This document shows, in pieces, positions 51,907-64,000 of a DNA stretch of 64,000 nucleotides; positions within the stretch are counted from its first letter, which is position 1; every line of letters begins with the position of its first letter. A program made the position numbers and the translations under genes. Origin of the DNA: TPA_inf: Saccharomyces (taxonomy: Eukaryota); assembly GCA_000146045.2 (NCBI GenBank), contig BK006935.2, positions 166,219 through 230,218 of the forward strand. The letters are read 5' to 3'. The notes beneath the pieces are model-generated. The model was not told where the DNA came from. It worked only from the letters and a program-made list of their open reading frames with translations, and made no database searches.

Positions 51907-53110
51907 TTGACGAACCAAGAAATGCCTTATCACTATTTATTTTTGGCACTCTTCACCTACCTGGCCACGTCCAATGTTGTTTCAGGAAGTACACAAGCAT
52001 GCCTGCCAGTGGGCCCGAGGAAAAATGGGATGAATGTCAACTTTTATAAATACTCATTACTGGATTCAACAACGTATTCCTACCCGCAATATATGACTTC
52101 TGGATATGCCTCGAATTGGAATTAGGTTCCGTTGGCGGACAGACGGATTTCTCAATTGACTACGATCTTTCTTGTGTTATCTCTTCAGGAACTTTTAAAT
52201 GTGCTCAATCAGATGCTTATGGAAACTGGGGATGCAGAGGTCATAGTGAATGTTCAAAATAGCCAAGAAAGACCTATTGGAGTACTGATTTACTTGGTTT
52301 CTTACTATCCCAAAAAACGCTACTCTAGAAATGACAGGTTACTTTTTACCACCACAAACAAGTTCTTACACGTTCAGGTTTGCTAAGGTCGATGACTCTG
52401 CAATTCTATCAGTCGGTGGTAACGTTGCGTTCGAATGTTGTGCACAAGAACAACCTCCAATTACATCGACGGATTTTACAATCAATGGTATTAAGCCATG
52501 GCAAGGAAGTTTGCCTGATAACATCGGAGGGACTGTCTACATGTATGCAGGCTACTATTATCCGCTGAAGGTTGTTTACTCCAATGCCGTTTCCTGGGGC
52601 ACGCTTCCAATTAGCGTGGAATTGCCTGATGGTACTACTGTTAGTGATGACTTTGAAGGGTACGTTTACTCTTTTGACGATGATTTAAGTCAGTCAAATT
52701 GTACTATCCCTGATCCTTCAAAACATACTACTAGCATCGTCACAACTACTACCGAACTGTGGACTGGTACTTTTACTTCTACATCTACTGAAATGACCAC
52801 CGTCACCGGTACTAATGGTCAACCAACTGACGAAACCGTTATTGTTGCCAAAGCTCCAACCACTGCCACCTCATCCAGTTTGTCATCATCTTCTTCAGAA
52901 CAAATCACCAGCTCTATCACGTCTTAGCATCCAATTATTACTCCATTCTATCGCAGCAATGGAACTTCTGTAGTTTCTTCCTCAGTCATGTCTTCCTCGG
53001 TCATTTCTTCTTCTGCAACGACCTCCACTTCTATATTCTCTGAATCATCTAAATCATCCGTCATTCAAACCAGTAGTTCCACCTCTGGTTCTTCTGAGAG
53101 CGAAACAATC
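51907..53110 (+). pseudogene. YAR062W: FLO1-like flocculin pseudogene (annotated pieces YAR061W and YAR062W): N-terminal domain with frameshifts/stops, repeat array collapsed to one unit, abrupt 3' truncation
   Basis: MTNQEMPYHYLFLALFTYLATSNVVSGSTQACLPVGPRKNGMNVNFYKYSL... (51907-52125) matches the FLO1 signal peptide and N-terminus and then loses frame. 52331-52927 encodes [30 protein letters not shown]...[34 protein letters not shown]..., then a single 45-aa repeat and [18 protein letters not shown]. Homology to the FLO1 Ser-rich region continues to ~53110 and then stops. Confidence 0.85.
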
Positions 53111-54468: not shown

Positions 54469-54830
54469 GGCCAATTGCTTATGTGTTGGTCTGCAAATTA
54501 GCACCTCGTTCCCTGTTGGCAAACGCGCGCGTACAAGCCTTACAGGGCTTGAGAATGTTCTTCGTAGAAATGCATGCACAAAAATTCTGATCTAGCACAC
54601 CATCGGTCTCTGTAGCTTCGGGCTCTATAGCTATGGGTTAGGAGTCCGTGAGTAGTAACAAGAAGAAGTATATAAAAAGCAGGTAAATCGTACTTCAATA
54701 TGCTTCATTGTCACTGGATCGTCATATTCACTCTTGTTCTCATAATAGCAGTCCAAGTTTTCATCTTTGCAAGCTTTACTATTTCTTTCTTTTTATTGGT
54801 AAACTCTCGCCCATTACAAAAAAAAAAGAG

Positions 54831-55442
54831 ATGTTCAATCGTTTTAACAAATTCCAAGCTGCTGTCGCTTTGGCCCTACTCTCTCGCGGCGCTCTCGGTG
54901 ACTCTTACACCAATAGCACCTCCTCCGCAGACTTGAGTTCTATCACTTCCGTCTCGTCAGCTAGTGCAAGTGCCACCGCTTCCGACTCACTTTCTTCCAG
55001 TGACGGTACCGTTTATTTGCCATCCACAACAATTAGCGGTGATCTCACAGTTACTGGTAAAGTAATTGCAACCGAGGCCGTGGAAGTCGCTGCCGGTGGT
55101 AAGTTGACTTTACTTGACGGTGAAAAATACGTCTTCTCATCTGATCTAAAAGTTCACGGTGATTTGGTTGTCGAAAAGTCTGAAGCAAGCTACGAAGGTA
55201 CCGCGTTCGACGTTTCTGGTGAGACTTTTGAAGTTTCCGGTAACTTCAGTGCTGAAGAAACTGGCGCTGTCTCCGCATCTATCTATTCATTCACACCTAG
55301 CTCGTTCAAGAGCAGCGGTGACATTTCTTTGAGTTTGTCAAAGGCCAAGAAGGGTGAAGTCACCTTTTCTCCATACTCTAACGCTGGTACCTTTTCTTTG
55401 TCAAATGCTATTCTCAACGGTGGTTCTGTTTCCGGTTTGTAA
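54831..55442 (+). CDS. YAR066W: Putative secreted/GPI cell-wall protein N-terminal portion (203 aa), HPF1/YIL169C-like; terminated by a TAA with the frame open beyond it
   Basis: MFNRFNKFQAAVALALLSRGALG is a signal peptide, followed by a Ser/Thr-rich and beta-rich N-domain. The TAA at 55440-55442 is followed in the same frame by 1284 nt of open reading frame. Confidence 0.8.
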   Translation: MFNRFNKFQAAVALALLSRGALGDSYTNSTSSADLSSITSVSSASASATASDSLSSSDGTVYLPSTTISGDLTVTGKVIATEAVEVAAGGKLTLLDGEKYVFSSDLKVHGDLVVEKSEASYEGTAFDVSGETFEVSGNFSAEETGAVSASIYSFTPSSFKSSGDISLSLSKAKKGEVTFSPYSNAGTFSLSNAILNGGSVSGL

Positions 55443-56726
55443 CGTAGAGACGACGATGAAGGCTCTGTAAATAACGGTGAAATCAACCTAGACAATGGAA
55501 GTACCTATGTTATCGTTGAACCAGTTTCTGGAAACGGTACAATCAACATCGTCTCTGGTAACCTATACTTGCACTACCCTGACACCTTTACTGGCCAAAC
55601 TGTTGTATTCAAGGGTGAAGGTGTTCTTGCCGTTGACCCAACCGAAACCAACGCCACTCCTATTCCTGTTGTTGGCTACACCGGTAAGAACCAAATTGCC
55701 ATTACCGCCGACATCACTGCTCTTTCTTACGACGGTACTACTGGTGTCTTAACTGCAACCCAAGGTAACAGACAATTCTCTTTTGAAATTGGTACTGGAT
55801 TCTCTAGTTCTGGCTTCAGTGTCTCCGAAGGAATCTTCGCAGGCGCCTACTCATATTACCTAAACTATGACGGTGTCATCGCTACAAGCGCCGCATCCAC
55901 ATCCGCATCCACTACCTCTGGTGTTGTCTCTACTGCCACTGGTTCAGTCACTTTATCCTCTAACGCTTCTACCACCGTCTCTTCTACGATCTCTTCTAGC
56001 GCCCCAGACTCAATAATTCCTTCATCTAGCGCCTCTATCTCTGGTGTCTCAAACTCCACTACAGCATCTGGTTCAATCGCTTCTACTGCTTCCACCGCTT
56101 CCACTACTTCTACTGCATCCGCTGCATCCGCCACCAGCTTCACCTCAGGTTCCGCTTCTGTCTACACTACTACATTAACTTACTTGAATGCCACAAGTAC
56201 AGTCGTGGTTTCCTGTTCAGAAACAACCGACGCTAGCGGTAACATTTACACCATTACCACAACTGTCCCATGCTCATCTACCACTGCCACCATCACATCT
56301 TGTGACGAAAACGGATGCCATGTTCCAGCACCAACTGCTACCGACGCAACTGCAACCGTTTCCTCCAAGTCATACACCACTGTTACTGTTACTCACTGTG
56401 ACAACAATGGCTGTAACACCAAGACTGTCACTTCTGAATGTTCTAAAGAAACTGCAGCAACCACCATTTCTCCAAAATCATACACTACTGTTACCGTTAC
56501 TCACTGTGACGACAACGGCTGTAACACCAAGACTGTCACTTCCGAGGCTTCCAAACAAACATCATTGGCCACTAGCACAGTCACCAAGTCTGCTGCTCCA
56601 ACTTCTCATACTGCTGCTTCCAGCACCTTCACTGGTATTGTCGTTCAATCCGAAGGTATGGCTGCTGGTTTGAGAACCAATGCTTTAAGTACTTTGGCAG
56701 GTATTTTCATCCTTGCTTTTTTTTAA
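55443..56726 (+). pseudogene. Same-frame continuation of the YAR066W gene after the in-frame stop: central domain, Ser/Thr-rich stalk, 2 x [23 protein letters not shown] repeats, hydrophobic GPI-type C-terminus
   Basis: 54831 and 55569 are in the same frame, and I translated the 42 codons between the TAA and 55569 without finding a stop. The C-terminus ...[26 protein letters not shown] looks like a GPI-anchor signal. Confidence 0.65.
56188..56673 (+). CDS. YAR068W: Annotated 161-aa ORF lying in an alternative frame over the continuation of the YAR066W gene; doubtful as an independent gene
   Basis: Reading frame +1 relative to the YAR066W frame. Its Pro/Leu/Thr-rich translation is what a shifted frame over Ser/Thr/Ala-codon DNA would produce. 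Confidence 0.25.
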
Positions 56727-56907
56727 AATGAGTGCGTAACCGTACTTTCCTAAAAATAACTAAGTAGAAAGTATTTTAATATATAAACGTCAGTGTAAAC
56801 ATTCAAGTGATTTTAACTTTACGCGGTTGAAGAATGCTGTGTTCGAACTATAAAGCGTCAGAAAAGATGGTTTAGCGAAGGCACCATTATGAAGATAGAC
56901 ACATTCT

Positions 56908-56945: not shown

Positions 56946-58957
56946 CATTTACTTTTATTTCGCGCGGTCGGTAAATTTTTCGTGGGTTTCTTTGAATCTA
57001 TTAGCCGACATAAGAATAATGCATAAATAATATTTTTAATGTCTTCCTATGCCCAAAAGAAGAAGTCTTGAAGTTGCCGCACATGGAAATCACATGACCA
57101 TGGCTTGGCCCTTCGTTTTAAATGCAACATGCAATATGGAATGTGTCATGAATACTATCAGCAGGAACAGAAAGCGTCGTTTTGTTTCTGCAAATGCTGT
57201 AGTTTTGGGCCGAAAATAGATGTAGTAGAATATATAGTGAAACGTGATGTACAAAAGAAAAAGGTAGTTTAAAAAAAATTAGATAACTTGGATTTTTACC
57301 CTGAATATTGCATGTGATTCGTAAAGAACTGAGTTACCTCAAACGGACCTCCCTTTTCATTTCGTATTCCGCGAATCATGAAGTCATGCAATTACCTCTG
57401 AAGAGCTGACTGTCCCAAAAGAAGCTATCGAATCTGTCCTTGATTTATTTAAGCCTTGCGTTTCGAGAAAGTGAAAACCAATTGAATACAAAATAAAAAA
57501 AAAGAAGAAAGAAATAGCAGGTCTAAGATATATAAGAAAGTTAATATCATTTTTGAACATTTTATTTTAGACGCCTTCAGCCGCGCGACGCCCGGAGTAA
57601 TCATATGCCCATGACTTTACCAAAAGGCAACAGGGAGGAACATGCATTAATGTGAAGCATCACTGCTGCAATTCTCGGTGTTGCTAATAATTCATGGATC
57701 GAGAAAGAGACATAACATTTAGGCCAATTTTTTGAATAAATATGAACTCAGCTAAGACTCGACAATACAATTTTCTTATACTAAACGTAGATTTATAAAA
57801 TAAACACAACTGTAAGGGCAATGCAACCGTAGATGCATATATCATTTATAGAAATTATATCCAACAGAAAGCTCAGACTTATATCCGGTTTAAGAGAGAA
57901 ATTCTTGCTCATATTACCCCAAGACCAGGTGGCGTGTTGAAGTTTATAACATATAAGAACTACTACCTCATGAATTCTAGTGGATGAAAGAAGCAGCACG
58001 AACACCATTTCTACAGACAACGACACATGGAAAGGTTCACCATTCCCAAAGAAAACAACGATGGCCACAAGGGTGTGGTCCTCCATTCTCCTACTGTTGG
58101 AAGGAGATATTATCCGACCGACTGTTTTGTGATATGGCAAACTATTTTTTTAAATGAGCAAAATTACTTCTTTTGGCTGGAAATGTCATTAGAAAGTGCC
58201 CAAGTGACATTTAGCTAAACTCGGGTATTGTCTACAAGACCGGTGCTGTGACCGTTTCCAATACGGAAAGAAACGGTACTGGGAGCAGGAGTTGCTTTTA
58301 CAGATATGAACAATGCCAATAGAGCCGCACATGTAATTACTGGTTCACACTCGTGGGGCCCACACGATTCCTGTGCAAAGTTTGACAAGAGGATGGAGTT
58401 TCACGTAAATGCTGCCAAAGGTGATGCGGTTTTGTTTTTGGGCAGCCTCTACCATGTTGCAAGTGCGAACCATACTGTGGCCACATAGATTACAAAAAAA
58501 GTCCAGGATATCTTGCAAACCTAGCTTGTTTTGTAAACGACATTGAAAAAAGCGTATTAAGGTGAAACAATCAAGATTATCTATGCCGATGAAAAATGAA
58601 AGGTATGATTTCTGCCACAAATATATAGTAGTTATTTTATACATCAAGATGAGAAAATAAAGGGATTTTTTCGTTCTTTTATCATTTTCTCTTTCTCACT
58701 TCCGACTACTTCTTATATCTACTTTCATCGTTTCATTCATCGTGGGTGTCTAATAAAGTTTTAATGACAGAGATAACCTTGATAAGCTTTTTCTTATACG
58801 CTGTGTCACGTATTTATTAAATTACCACGTTTTCGCATAACATTCTGTAGTTCATGTGTACTAAAAAAAAAAAAAAAAAAGAAATAGGAAGGAAAGAGTA
58901 AAAAGTTAATAGAAAACAGAACACATCCCTAAACGAAGCCGCACAATCTTGGCGTTC

Positions 58958-63192: not shown

Positions 63193-63890
63193 ATAGTGTG
63201 TTTATACCTTATTATTGATGATTAGTATATATTTTTATATTTAGGTGATTTTAGTGGAGATTATTTGGTGGTAATTACACTAGTATACATAAAATGGGTA
63301 GTGGATATTTGTATAGAAAGGGCATTACGCATGGAGTTAAGAGTATTTACATGATAATTGGGGTTCCGTGATTCATTATAGATAATAAAACGTGGATAAT
63401 ATTGGGTGTTATAGGTAAATGGGACAGGGTATAGACCGCTGAGGCAAGTGCCGTGTATGGTGATGTGGTATGGTATCGAGTACCGATGGAGTGAGAGATG
63501 GCCTTGGTGTAGAGTATTATGGCGGGTAAGTTAGATGATGTATTGTTTACGTTATATTTGTTTAAATTGGATTTGTTTACATTAGATTTGTTTACATTTC
63601 AATATATCAATGGAGGGTATGTAGCATTATGGTAAGTAGCACGTGGTAGATGGGGATTGTAGGTGGATGGTAGGATGAGTGGTAGTGAGAGTTGGATAAG
63701 ATATATTGGGCAGGGGATAGATGGTTGTTGGGGTGTGGTGATGGATAGTGAGTGGATAGTGAGTGGATGGATGGTGGAGTGGGGGAATGAGACAGGGCAT
63801 GGGGTGGTGAGGTAAGTGCCGTGGATTGTGATGATGGAGAGGGAGGGTAGTTGACATGGAGTTAGAATTGGGTCAGTGTTAGTGTTAGTG
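63193..63890. repeat. Subtelomeric X element (core X plus short combinatorial repeats); no Y' element
   Basis: Non-coding, with TTAGGG-like and degenerate G-rich repeats (gggtag, ggtggatag) at 63600-63890 leading into the telomeric tract. Its position directly distal to IMD1 matches an X-only chromosome end. Confidence 0.6.
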
Positions 63891-63898
63891 TTAGTATT

Positions 63899-64000
63899 AG
63901 GGTGTGGTGTGTGGGTGTGGTGTGGGTGTGGGTGTGGGTGTGGGTGTGGGTGTGGGTGTGGTGTGGTGTGTGGGTGTGGTGTGGGTGTGGTGTGTGTGGG
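63899..64000. repeat. Telomeric TG1-3 / C1-3A repeats running to the end of the window
   Basis: Direct read: gggtgtggtgtgtgggtgtggtgtgggtgtgggtgtgg..., the irregular yeast telomerase product. Confidence 0.95.

What the first reader, a model, noticed from the sequence alone, without database searches (positions are those of the whole stretch)
54831..56726. YAR066W is the 5' third of a ~631-codon GPI cell-wall protein gene interrupted by one in-frame TAA; YAR068W lies in its alternate frame
After the TAA at 55440-55442 the same frame stays open for 1284 nt. It encodes a beta-rich domain, a Ser/Thr/Ala stalk, duplicated Cys-containing [23 protein letters not shown] motifs and a textbook GPI-anchor C-terminus. 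That is the architecture of HPF1/YIL169C-type mannoproteins, with the N-terminal similarity recalled from memory. It is either a very recent pseudogene, or a gene expressed by stop-codon readthrough or intact in other strains. The annotated YAR068W (56188-56673) is in a different frame over this region and is likely not a real gene.
Basis: seen in the sequence. Interest (0 to 1): 0.6.

Follow-up and report, generated by a model that had tools for sequence, protein, structure and literature searches.

The report
Nonsense-disabled HPF1-family cell-wall gene
The short reference ORF "YAR066W" is the first third of a 631-codon cell-wall mannoprotein gene that a single C-to-T change (Gln204 to stop) cut short in this strain, while other yeast strains and sister species keep it whole and the neighbouring "YAR068W" is a wrong-frame artefact; this is a useful annotation correction, not a new kind of biology.

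Summary
ATG 54831 opens a frame interrupted only by TAA 55440-55442, which then runs to TAA 56724-56726.

**It is one gene.**
- Pfam PF11765 (Hyphal_reg_CWP) crosses the stop.
- PF20646 (Hpf1_C) lies downstream, followed by a hydrophobic GPI-type C-terminus.
- The predicted fold matches the Candida glabrata Awp1/Awp3b adhesin A-domains.

**The stop is derived and recent.**
- Many S. cerevisiae strains, and the S. paradoxus, S. uvarum and S. kudriavzevii-type orthologues, carry uninterrupted 631-638-codon genes with CAA (Gln) at codon 204.
- The nearest intact allele found, from wine strain QA23, differs at three sites within 33 nt over the 1179 nt available.
- The truncated allele also occurs in non-laboratory strains, on contigs the size of chromosome I and of chromosome VIII.

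**YAR068W is the wrong frame.**
- Across its span (56188-56673) dN/dS is 0.14-0.21 in the long frame and 1.3-2.0 in the YAR068W frame.
- The YAR068W frame contains stops in two sister species.
- An open run this long arises in 13% of codon shuffles.

**Readthrough is not supported.** The stop is the strongest terminator (UAA), the context is ordinary, and the stop is not conserved. No expression data could be examined.

**Verdict:** a recent, segregating nonsense allele of an HPF1/CSS1-family gene. Interest is modest.

The parts
54669..54677 (+). Putative TATA element (TATATAAAA) about 155 nt upstream of the ATG
   Evidence: Read from the sequence only. Its function is inferred, not tested.
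54831..55439 (+). Codons 1-203, the annotated YAR066W ORF. It is the 5' third of the gene: signal peptide (codons 1-23, nt 54831-54899), a short Ser/Ala-rich stretch, and the first ~140 residues of the beta-helix A-region.
   Evidence: The exact product is named YAR066W (NP_009430.1). The 23-aa signal peptide drives secretion of fusion proteins (PMC4508530).
55026..55874 (+). A-region (residues 66-348): PF11765 Hyphal_reg_CWP domain, predicted beta-helix plus alpha-crystallin-like cap. The stop interrupts it.
   Evidence: Pfam E 2.4e-22, 79.7 bits. AF2 model pLDDT 75-92 over residues 60-350, except the loop 197-211. Foldseek hits to Awp3b/Awp1 A-domains 7o9o/7o9q, E 1.6e-8 to 3.5e-7, probability 1.0.
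55440..55442 (+). Premature TAA at codon 204, a derived C>T change from CAA (Gln). The context is TTG TAA CGT AGA.
   Evidence: CAA is present in all intact S. cerevisiae alleles, in the S. paradoxus and S. uvarum orthologues, and in the chrIX- and chrXV-sized-contig paralogues. The S. kudriavzevii-type gene has GAA (Glu). Gln204 is nearly invariant and L203, R205 and R206 are invariant in the family alignment.
55440..55472 (+). Cluster of three derived transitions (55440 C>T, 55463 T>C, 55472 C>T) that marks every truncated allele sampled
   Evidence: These are the only differences from the wine-strain QA23 intact allele over 1179 nt. They are derived relative to S. paradoxus. They are absent from orthologues and from the chrIX- and chrXV-sized-contig paralogues.
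55443..56723 (+). Codons 205-631, unannotated in the reference. They hold the rest of the A-region, the Ser/Thr/Ala stalk (codons 351-445, nt 55881-56165), the Cys-containing repeat region and the GPI signal.
   Evidence: Open frame. dN/dS in this frame is 0.13 (S. paradoxus), 0.17 and 0.22. 13 of 16 differences from an intact allele are synonymous.
56163..56267 (+). Hpf1 C-terminal YTTT repeat (PF20646)
   Evidence: E 3.1e-8, 33.6 bits against a cut-off of 25.
56370..56546 (+). Two copies of [23 protein letters not shown] (56370-56438 and 56478-56546)
   Evidence: The motifs are conserved in orthologues.
56646..56726 (+). GPI-attachment-type C-terminus (…[28 protein letters not shown]) followed by the natural TAA terminator
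   Evidence: Kyte-Doolittle mean of the last 10 residues is 2.82, against 1.00 for the C-terminus of the 203-aa product. The sequence matches the family consensus C-terminus. No dedicated GPI predictor was available.
56188..56673 (+). Annotated YAR068W (161 codons, +1 frame): a spurious ORF
   Evidence: No Pfam match. dN/dS is 1.3-2.0 in its own frame against 0.14-0.21 in the long frame. The frame has 2 stops in S. uvarum and 1 in the S. kudriavzevii-type gene. A 161-codon open +1 run arises in 13% of codon shuffles of codons 350-631.
56780..56786 (+). TATATAA in an A/T-rich stretch after the natural terminator; a putative 3'-end formation element
   Evidence: Read from the sequence only; inferred. 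No comparable A/T-rich block follows the premature stop.

Best explanation
Window 54831-56726 is a single gene for a secreted, GPI-anchored cell-wall mannoprotein of the Hpf1/Css1(Hzy1)/Awa1 group, part of the Hyr/Iff/Awp family defined by PF11765 plus PF20646.

The intact product (631 aa) has these parts:
- a 23-aa signal peptide;
- an A-region predicted to be a right-handed beta-helix capped by an alpha-crystallin-like sandwich (about residues 61-350);
- a heavily O-glycosylatable Ser/Thr/Ala stalk;
- Cys-containing repeats;
- a GPI-attachment signal.

In the haplotype of this window a C>T transition turned CAA (Gln204) into TAA. The change lies in a loop about two thirds of the way along the beta-helix. 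Translation therefore ends after 203 residues. The product lacks the rest of the helix, its cap, the stalk and the anchor, so it cannot be wall-anchored (inferred).

The mutation is recent and segregates in the species. It also occurs on chrVIII-sized contigs, in line with the known I/VIII subtelomeric duplication. At this locus the strain is a loss-of-function, or at best a producer of a secreted fragment. Full-length protein could arise only from basal readthrough.

YAR068W is an accidental open +1 frame. It stays open because 57% of the overlapping codons have C at position 2 and so cannot seed a stop in that frame.

Shown: gene unity, family, derived nonsense change, intact alleles elsewhere, and the wrong frame of YAR068W. 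Inferred: fate of the truncated product, very low readthrough, and the cell-surface role of the intact protein.
For: **One gene**
- PF11765 spans the stop, and each piece alone matches complementary halves of the profile.
- PF20646 lies downstream.
- Distant relatives at 25-37% identity align in one stretch across the stop position.
- The AF2 model gives one beta-rich domain over residues 60-350 that matches the Awp1/Awp3b crystal structures.

**Intact alleles elsewhere**
- P0001 is 99% identical over 100% of the query. Its cluster holds 104 sequences, including K7_03371p of sake strain Kyokai 7 and alleles from wild Chinese isolates.
- Several of these differ from the window's translation by one residue besides Gln204.
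- Orthologues of 633-638 aa exist in S. paradoxus, S. uvarum and an S. kudriavzevii-type subgenome, with Gln or Glu at this position.

**Derived and recent**
- Polarised with S. paradoxus, T at 55440 is derived.
- The QA23 allele differs at only 3 sites over the 1179 nt available.
- Truncated alleles differ from one another by 1-7 nt.

**Long-term purifying selection in the long frame downstream of the stop**
- dN/dS is 0.13-0.22.
- Against S. paradoxus, the 128 downstream substitutions split 23/14/91 by codon position.

**A real natural allele, not an error**
- The exact 203-aa product is indexed in 719 blocks of assemblies, including YJM and other non-laboratory strain assemblies, on chrI- and chrVIII-sized contigs.

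**No rescue by reinitiation**
- The only in-frame Met after the stop is codon 610.

**No leaky context**
- The stop is UAA, the strongest terminator. UAA-C gives about median readthrough, and U at -2 and G at -1 are not favourable (PMC8087045).

**YAR068W is spurious**
Against: - All ten truncated-allele loci examined keep the 427-codon downstream frame open. This is expected for a very young nonsense allele, but it is also what functional readthrough would predict.
- One strain carries TGA instead of TAA at codon 204, a stop-preserving change.
- Relaxed constraint downstream among truncated alleles (5 nonsynonymous: 4 synonymous, against 5:20 in the intact-allele polymorphism plus fixed differences) is only suggestive, Fisher p = 0.085.
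- No ribosome-profiling, mRNA-stability or protein data could be examined.
- The three polymorphisms upstream of the stop among truncated alleles are all synonymous, so the 203-aa fragment might still be under constraint.
Confidence: 0.9

Rival explanations
1. The stop is functionally read through, either constitutively at low level or conditionally in [PSI+] or termination-defective cells. On this reading the locus is a conditionally expressed full-length wall protein rather than a dead gene.
For: The downstream frame is intact in 10 of 10 truncated alleles, and one allele has a stop-to-stop change, TAA to TGA. C at +4 is the most permissive nucleotide at that position (PMC8087045). Two loci (chrI and chrVIII) would be rescued together.
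Against: The stop is absent from all orthologues, paralogues and many conspecific alleles, so it is not a conserved feature. UAA is the strongest terminator, UAA-C is only about median, and there is no CAR-YYA-type motif. The allele is so young that an intact downstream frame carries little weight: there are 3 differences from an intact allele over 1179 nt. Downstream polymorphism on truncated haplotypes is 5 nonsynonymous: 4 synonymous, which leans towards relaxation. A 1.3-kb stretch after a premature stop would be expected to trigger nonsense-mediated decay (established knowledge; not tested).
Confidence: 0.05
2. The 203-aa truncated protein is itself a useful product, a secreted unanchored beta-helix fragment. 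On this reading the nonsense allele spread because of that, not by drift.
For: The signal peptide works (PMC4508530). The stop lies in a low-confidence, probably exposed loop just before an invariant Arg-Arg that could be a Kex2 site, so the fragment may resemble a natural processing product. The three polymorphisms upstream of the stop on truncated haplotypes are all synonymous. The allele is common and present at two loci.
Against: The fragment lacks about a third of the beta-helix and the alpha-crystallin domain. That domain is described as the C-terminal cap of this fold (PMC8746771), so the fragment is likely to be unstable. Three synonymous changes carry no statistical weight. Kex2 cleavage is untested, and no such report turned up in a literature search. 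Subtelomeric duplication and drift explain the spread equally well.
Confidence: 0.12
3. YAR068W is a genuine overlapping (overprinted) gene in the +1 frame.
For: It is a 161-codon ATG-initiated ORF that is also open in S. paradoxus. The literature treats it as a gene, reports transcript changes, and reports a ketoconazole-resistance phenotype on overexpression (PMC1097725; PMC2535606).
Against: dN/dS is 1.3-2.0 in its own frame, because the variable sites are its second codon positions. The frame has stops in S. uvarum and in the S. kudriavzevii-type gene. It has no family match. Its length is unremarkable given the overlapping Ser/Thr/Ala codons (13% of shuffles). Its transcript signal is what a single mRNA spanning the long frame would give: YHR214W and YHR214W-A fall together in mucin (PMC8527512).
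Confidence: 0.02
4. The stop is a sequencing or assembly error in this window.
For: None was found.
Against: The identical 203-aa product is called in hundreds of independent assemblies, and the TAA was read directly in ten of them.
Confidence: 0.005

Closest known systems
HPF1 (YOL155C), haze-protective-factor mannoprotein of S. cerevisiae
   Same: It has the PF11765 A-region, the Hpf1_C repeat, Ser/Thr-rich regions, CDxNGC repeats and the same C-terminal consensus (…QSEGIAAGL…LVGIFVLAFF). Proteins named Hpf1p are among the hits at 71-78% identity.
   Different: HPF1 is a separate locus; the HPF1-type paralogue sampled here sits on a chrXV-sized contig. [quoted passage not shown] The gene here has only about 37 residues before the A-region and is interrupted in this strain. 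HPF1 repeat length controls buoyancy and chronological life span (PMC7263189). No phenotype is known for this locus.
CSS1/HZY1 (YIL169C)
   Same: It is the closest named paralogue. Several annotators transferred the names 'Css1p' and 'YIL169C-like' to intact alleles and orthologues of this locus. It is also a strain-polymorphic wall glycoprotein. According to bioRxiv 10.1101/2023.07.10.548400, its S288C allele lacks the GPI signal predicted in a wine strain and a brewing strain.
   Different: It lies on chromosome IX and carries long serine-rich N-terminal repeats. The defect reported for it in S288C is loss of the anchor signal, not a nonsense codon inside the A-region.
Candida glabrata Awp1/Awp3b (and C. 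albicans Hyr1/Iff) adhesin-like wall proteins
   Same: The predicted A-region fold matches the crystal structures 7o9q and 7o9o, which show a beta-helix plus an alpha-crystallin cap. It belongs to the same InterPro/Pfam family and has the same A-region, stalk and GPI layout (PMC8746771).
   Different: Sequence identity is only 15-22%. The disulfide between the A-region C-terminus and the alpha-crystallin domain described for Awp1/Awp3b has no counterpart, because there is no Cys before residue 462. Adhesive function has not been shown for the Saccharomyces proteins.
Other reference-strain genes split by a single stop, such as VTH3 (YNR066C/YNR065C)
   Same: In each case one in-frame stop splits a subtelomeric gene into reference 'ORFs', while many other strains carry the intact gene. 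VTH3 is intact in 30 of 93 strains (PMC12157680).
   Different: That survey does not list this locus as a split gene. It mentions YAR066W only as the first variable gene of the chromosome I right arm.

Membership tests
Hpf1/Css1/Awa1 group of the Hyr/Iff/Awp wall-protein family (PF11765, IPR021031) | N-terminal secretion signal | tested here: met
   MFNRFNKFQAAVALALLSRGALG has a hydrophobic core. The signal drives secretion experimentally as fusion partner TFP1 (PMC4508530).
Hpf1/Css1/Awa1 group of the Hyr/Iff/Awp wall-protein family (PF11765, IPR021031) | Hyphal_reg_CWP domain scoring above Pfam's gathering score | tested here: met
   79.7 bits against a cut-off of 28 over residues 66-348 when the stop is masked. 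The 5' piece alone scores 28.6 bits, barely above the cut-off.
Hpf1/Css1/Awa1 group of the Hyr/Iff/Awp wall-protein family (PF11765, IPR021031) | Beta-helix plus alpha-crystallin A-region fold | tested here: met
   The test used a predicted model only. pLDDT is 75-92 over residues 60-350. Foldseek finds 7o9o and 7o9q at E 1.6e-8 to 3.5e-7, probability 1.0, with target-normalised TM-score 0.59-0.66.
Hpf1/Css1/Awa1 group of the Hyr/Iff/Awp wall-protein family (PF11765, IPR021031) | Ser/Thr-rich stalk and Hpf1_C YTTT repeat | tested here: met
   Residues 351-445 are 75% Ser+Thr+Ala. PF20646 scores 33.6 bits against 25.
Hpf1/Css1/Awa1 group of the Hyr/Iff/Awp wall-protein family (PF11765, IPR021031) | C-terminal GPI-attachment signal | tested here: inconclusive
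   The sequence features fit: small residues (…SEGMAAG…), a polar spacer, and a hydrophobic tail with Kyte-Doolittle mean 2.82. The C-terminus matches the family consensus. No GPI predictor or experiment was available.
Hpf1/Css1/Awa1 group of the Hyr/Iff/Awp wall-protein family (PF11765, IPR021031) | Uninterrupted reading frame that yields the whole protein | tested here: not met
   This window has TAA at codon 204. The feature is met by alleles in other strains and species. In this strain the locus is therefore a disabled member.
Programmed stop-codon readthrough gene | Stop codon conserved in orthologues | tested here: not met
   Every orthologue, paralogue and intact allele examined has Gln (CAA) or Glu (GAA) at this position.
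Programmed stop-codon readthrough gene | Leaky stop and stimulatory 3' context | tested here: not met
   The context is UAA CGU AGA. UAA is the least permissive stop, and UAA-C gives about median readthrough.
Programmed stop-codon readthrough gene | Purifying selection downstream on lineages that carry the stop | tested here: inconclusive
   Among truncated alleles there are 5 nonsynonymous and 4 synonymous downstream changes, against 5:20 elsewhere, p = 0.085. There are too few mutations to decide.
Programmed stop-codon readthrough gene | Translation observed beyond the stop | not testable with these tools
   This needs ribosome profiling or protein detection.
Segregating nonsense allele (young unitary pseudogene) | Disabling change that is derived relative to the outgroup and absent from conspecific alleles | tested here: met
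   C>T at 55440 is derived relative to S. paradoxus. The nearest intact allele differs at 3 of 1179 nt.
YAR068W as a protein-coding gene | Frame conserved and under purifying selection | tested here: not met
   dN/dS is 1.3-2.0 in its own frame. The frame has stops in two sister species. There is no family match.

The most novel reading that the evidence does not exclude
The two nonsense copies (chromosomes I and VIII) act as a reservoir of hidden variation. In [PSI+] cells or under impaired termination, readthrough of UAA-C at codon 204 would restore a full-length GPI-anchored Hpf1-like wall protein from both loci at once and change cell-surface properties. The intact downstream frame and the stop-preserving TGA variant would then reflect selection for this conditional expression.
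Probability: 0.05. Interest if true: 0.55.

Novelty: new member of a known kind. Interest (0 to 1): 0.3.

Why it matters
**Annotation.** The result corrects four reference ORFs.
- YAR066W and YHR214W are nonsense-truncated alleles of a 631-codon HPF1-family gene.
- The 'putative GPI protein' label of the 203-aa product rests on a weak C-terminus. The real anchor-type signal lies 428 codons downstream.
- YAR068W and YHR214W-A should be treated as dubious.

**A published inference.** PMC1097725 cites YAR068W as having one of the highest Ka/Ks ratios in the sensu stricto yeasts and as a possible target of positive selection. That signal is a wrong-frame artefact.

**Family size.** The structural study of this family says that S288c has only two members, Hpf1 and Css1 (PMC8746771). 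The species has at least one further locus, which is intact in sake and wild strains and in the 1179 nt available from a wine strain.

**Possible phenotypes.** HPF1 and CSS1/HZY1 alleles influence buoyancy, life span and beverage haze. Presence or absence of a working copy here is therefore a plausible contributor to strain differences in surface properties, though that is untested.

**Laboratory strain.** With the reported loss of the GPI signal from S288C CSS1, the laboratory strain appears defective at three of its four family loci.

Tried and rejected
- **Domain-only homologue search.** A second word-indexed search with the A-region alone returned fewer hits, all from Saccharomyces. It did not help to reach distant relatives. 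The exhaustive representative search did reach them.
- **PDB profile search.** A profile search of PDB sequences gave only weak, irrelevant hits: a protein named mL77 and Clumping factor A. Fold comparison was needed instead.
- **Apparent divergent alleles.** Two truncated alleles looked divergent: L013 with '102 differences' and L008 with a different C-terminus. Both were runs of N or scaffolding artefacts.
- **Gene conversion as the source of the three-site cluster.** I tested whether the changes at 55440-55472 came from the chrIX- or chrXV-sized-contig paralogues. Neither paralogue, nor any orthologue, carries the derived bases. That donor is rejected, and the origin of the cluster stays open.
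- **Reinitiation downstream of the stop.** Rejected, because the only in-frame Met is codon 610 and any such product would lack a signal peptide.
- **Earlier descriptions.** I searched for YAR066W, YAR068W and YHR214W in the supplements of the hemiascomycete pseudogene survey and of the yeast readthrough survey, and in the core-gene-set preprint. Nothing was found. Only the abstract and references of the 2001 re-annotation paper are held, so its tables could not be read.
- **Kex2 processing of Hpf1-type proteins.** A literature search found no relevant report.
Full report
**1. Observation**

Reading the window directly confirms all the coordinates.
- An ATG at 54831 opens a frame that meets TAA at 55440-55442 (codon 204).
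- The frame then stays open for 427 more sense codons to TAA at 56724-56726.
- The 161-codon ORF at 56188-56673 lies in the +1 frame relative to it.
- The two [23 protein letters not shown] motifs are at residues 514-536 and 550-572.
- The exact 203-aa and 161-aa products carry the database names YAR066W and YAR068W of S. cerevisiae S288C.
- The window ends in TG1-3 telomere repeats 7274 nt after the gene, so this is a chromosome end.

**2. One gene, and which family**

With the stop masked, a single Pfam PF11765 (Hyphal_reg_CWP) match runs from residue 66 to 348 (profile 11-307 of 328; 79.7 bits, cut-off 28). The 5' piece alone covers profile 11-145 and the 3' piece covers 162-307. The YAR068W translation matches nothing. 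The 3' part also holds the Hpf1 C-terminal YTTT repeat, PF20646 (33.6 bits, cut-off 25; nt 56163-56267).

An exhaustive phmmer search found only 21 representative relatives. Those at 25-37% identity align in one stretch across the stop position, and the five of them scanned are PF11765 proteins.

An AlphaFold2 model of an intact allele's first 393 residues is confident (pLDDT 75-92) from residue 60 to 350, except for a loop at 197-211, and that loop is where codon 204 lies. Its best structural matches are the crystal structures of the Candida glabrata Awp3b and Awp1 A-domains (7o9o, 7o9q; E 1.6e-8 to 3.5e-7, probability 1.0). These structures show a right-handed beta-helix capped by an alpha-crystallin-like domain (PMC8746771).

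The rest of the long frame continues as follows:
- a stalk that is 75% Ser+Thr+Ala (residues 351-445);
- a region with nine cysteines and three CDxNGC motifs;
- a C-terminus (…[28 protein letters not shown]) whose last ten residues average 2.82 on the Kyte-Doolittle scale and which matches the family consensus.

The C-terminus of the 203-aa product averages only 1.00. The 'putative GPI protein' label of YAR066W therefore rests on a weak tail, while the convincing anchor-type signal lies 428 codons further on.

**3. The stop is a derived, recent nonsense mutation**

A search of about 5.8 billion proteins found full-length relatives at once.
- P0001 (634 aa, S. cerevisiae) is 99% identical over 100% of the query and represents a cluster of 104 sequences.
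- There are orthologues in S. paradoxus (SPAR_A00820, 638 aa, 90%), S. uvarum (633 aa) and an S. kudriavzevii-type subgenome (633 aa). Proteins named Css1p, Hpf1p and Awa1 also appear.
- In the alignment every uninterrupted sequence reads SGL-Q-RRDDDEG, or E in the S. kudriavzevii-type gene, where the window has the stop. L203, R205 and R206 are invariant and Q204 is nearly invariant across 25 family members.
- Some deposited gene models skip the stop with an invented gap (P0008-P0010, P0016).
- Intact 631-aa alleles occur in sake strain Kyokai 7 (K7_03371p), in wild Chinese isolates and in many other assemblies, on contigs the size of chromosome I and of chromosome VIII. Several differ from the window's conceptual translation by a single residue besides Gln204.

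At the DNA level the picture is the same.
- One intact allele differs from the window at 22 of 1896 positions: 18 synonymous third-position changes, the TAA/CAA site, and 3 nonsynonymous changes.
- Polarised with S. paradoxus, T at 55440 is derived.
- The nearest intact allele I found, from wine strain Lalvin QA23 with 1179 nt available, differs from the window at only three positions: 55440, 55463 and 55472.
- All three are derived transitions within 33 nt. They are shared by every truncated allele sampled and absent from orthologues and from the chrIX- and chrXV-sized-contig paralogues. Gene conversion from those paralogues is therefore excluded as their source.

The truncated allele is no laboratory oddity.
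- Its exact product is indexed in 719 blocks of assemblies, though this count is inflated by S288C-derived sequencing runs. It includes YJM and other non-laboratory strain assemblies on chrI- and chrVIII-sized contigs.
- The I/VIII duplication of this block (19.6 kb, Ks 0.0066 for YAR066W/YHR214W) is on record (PMC2728529).

**4. Selection and the frame question**

Nei-Gojobori estimates are as follows.

| Comparison with | Codons 205-631, long frame | YAR068W span, long frame | YAR068W span, YAR068W frame |
|---|---|---|---|
| S. paradoxus | 0.13 | 0.14 | 1.57 |
| S. kudriavzevii-type gene | 0.17 | 0.21 | 1.42 |
| S. uvarum | 0.22 | 0.175 | 1.96 |
| Intact S. cerevisiae allele | 0.08 | 0.17 | 1.33 |

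- The variable sites are third positions of the long frame, which are second positions of the YAR068W frame.
- That frame has two stops in S. uvarum and one in the S. kudriavzevii-type gene.
- Its length is unremarkable. 57% of the overlapping codons have C at position 2, so they cannot start a stop in the +1 frame, and a 161-codon open run appears in 13% of codon shuffles.

This explains a published oddity. YAR068W was cited as having one of the highest Ka/Ks ratios among the sensu stricto yeasts and as possibly under positive selection (PMC1097725). That is what a wrong frame over a constrained gene produces.

Transcript data fit one mRNA. YHR214W (-13x) and YHR214W-A (-5.2x) fall together with HPF1 (-5.5x) in mucin medium (PMC8527512).

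**5. How it most likely works**

*Shown:* the locus encodes, in intact form, a Hpf1/Css1-type secreted wall protein, and here a CAA>TAA change ends translation at residue 203.

*Inferred:*
- The 203-aa product retains the working signal peptide (PMC4508530) and about 140 residues of beta-helix.
- It lacks the remaining turns, the alpha-crystallin domain described as the cap of this fold, the stalk and the anchor.
- It cannot be wall-anchored, and it is probably unstable or released.

Reinitiation cannot rescue the rest, because the only downstream in-frame Met is codon 610.

Readthrough should be low. UAA is the strongest terminator, UAA-C is about median, and the -2/-1 and +5/+6 bases are not the favourable ones (PMC8087045).

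**6. Rivals**

*Functional or conditional readthrough.*
- It has in its favour that all ten truncated alleles keep the downstream frame open, and that one carries TGA at codon 204.
- With an allele this young, an intact downstream frame is expected anyway.
- Downstream mutations on truncated haplotypes are 5 nonsynonymous to 4 synonymous. The ratio is 5:20 for intact-allele polymorphism plus fixed differences (Fisher p = 0.085). That is a hint of relaxation, not proof.
- The stop is not conserved in any relative.

*A useful secreted fragment.*
- This cannot be excluded.
- The stop sits two codons before an invariant Arg-Arg in an apparently exposed loop. The dibasic pair persists in relatives of 34-37% identity, and P0143 (29%) has Lys-Lys there, but Candida-type members have none. 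It could be a Kex2 site.
- This is an untested idea.

*YAR068W as a real overlapping gene, and sequencing error.* Both are effectively excluded.

**7. Comparison with what is known, and novelty**

The nearest known genes are HPF1, CSS1/HZY1 and AWA1. The nearest solved structures are Awp1 and Awp3b.

All family-defining features that could be tested are met, apart from the GPI signal, which could only be judged from sequence features. The exception is an uninterrupted frame, which this strain lacks and other strains have.

The pattern of a single stop splitting a subtelomeric gene into reference 'ORFs' that are whole in other strains is familiar; VTH3 is intact in 30 of 93 strains (PMC12157680). 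That survey does not list this locus as such a case. The structural paper on the family counts only Hpf1 and Css1 in S288c.

Full-length alleles are already in public databases as unnamed predicted proteins. What is new is the link to the reference ORFs and the dismissal of YAR068W and YHR214W-A. I found no paper in the held library that states this. I could not consult SGD.

According to a preprint, the S288C allele of CSS1/HZY1 also lacks its GPI signal. The laboratory strain therefore seems defective at three of its four family loci.

**8. Verdict**

This is a recent, segregating nonsense allele of an HPF1-family wall-protein gene, duplicated on chromosomes I and VIII, with a spurious ORF in its alternative frame. 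It is a worthwhile annotation correction and a possible source of strain differences in surface properties. It is not mechanistically new, and interest is modest (0.3).

Noticed in passing
window 58006-58596 (+): A decayed relic of a PhyH-family (PF05721) gene: three tblastn pieces in different frames, 48-61% identical to an intact 346-aa gene. In S. paradoxus (L006) and in S. cerevisiae strains L019 and L020 that gene lies between the HPF1-like gene and the acid-phosphatase gene. The adjacent Aminotran_3 gene (437 aa) of those strains has left no trace in the window.
   Followed up: partly
window 51922-52963 (+): Flocculin N-terminal fragments (similar to a PA14/GLEYA-bearing flocculin ORF of strain L019) in several frames, so a disabled flocculin. 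In three strains with the intact HPF1-like allele (L001, L019, L022) the upstream neighbour is a 1004-1675-aa ORF, and the L019 copy is the flocculin-like query. Several neighbouring genes are therefore decayed together on this haplotype.
   Followed up: partly
L013 8610-8612 (equivalent to window 55440-55442): One YJM-collection assembly (GCA_000977355.3, chrVIII-sized contig) has TGA instead of TAA at codon 204, a stop-preserving A>G change at the position equivalent to 55441. This is a single observation in a short-read assembly that also contains an N gap.
   Followed up: partly
window 55440-55472: Three derived transitions within 33 nt (C>T, T>C, C>T) are in complete linkage in all truncated alleles sampled. 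They are the only differences from the QA23 intact allele over 1179 nt. They are not found in paralogues or orthologues, so they may be one clustered mutational event of unknown origin.
   Followed up: yes
L011 and L012 (equivalent to window 56725): Two truncated copies in one strain (GCA_029990865.1) have lost the natural terminator (TAA>TTA), which extends the frame by Leu-Lys. L012 also has an in-frame 15-nt deletion at 55966-55980.
   Followed up: no
residues 203-206 of the long frame (window 55437-55448): Leu-Gln-Arg-Arg sits in a low-confidence loop of the model. The Arg-Arg is invariant in Saccharomyces family members and kept in relatives of 34-37% identity, while P0143 (29% identity) has Lys-Lys there. 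It could be a Kex2 dibasic site immediately after the position of the stop. No report was found.
   Followed up: partly
window 63600-64000: The window ends in TG1-3 telomere repeats preceded by degenerate G-rich subtelomeric sequence.
   Followed up: no
paralogue YIL169C (not in the window): A preprint reports that the S288C allele of CSS1/HZY1 lacks the GPI signal predicted in a wine strain and a brewing strain (bioRxiv 10.1101/2023.07.10.548400). Together with this finding, S288C would be defective at three of four family loci.
   Followed up: no
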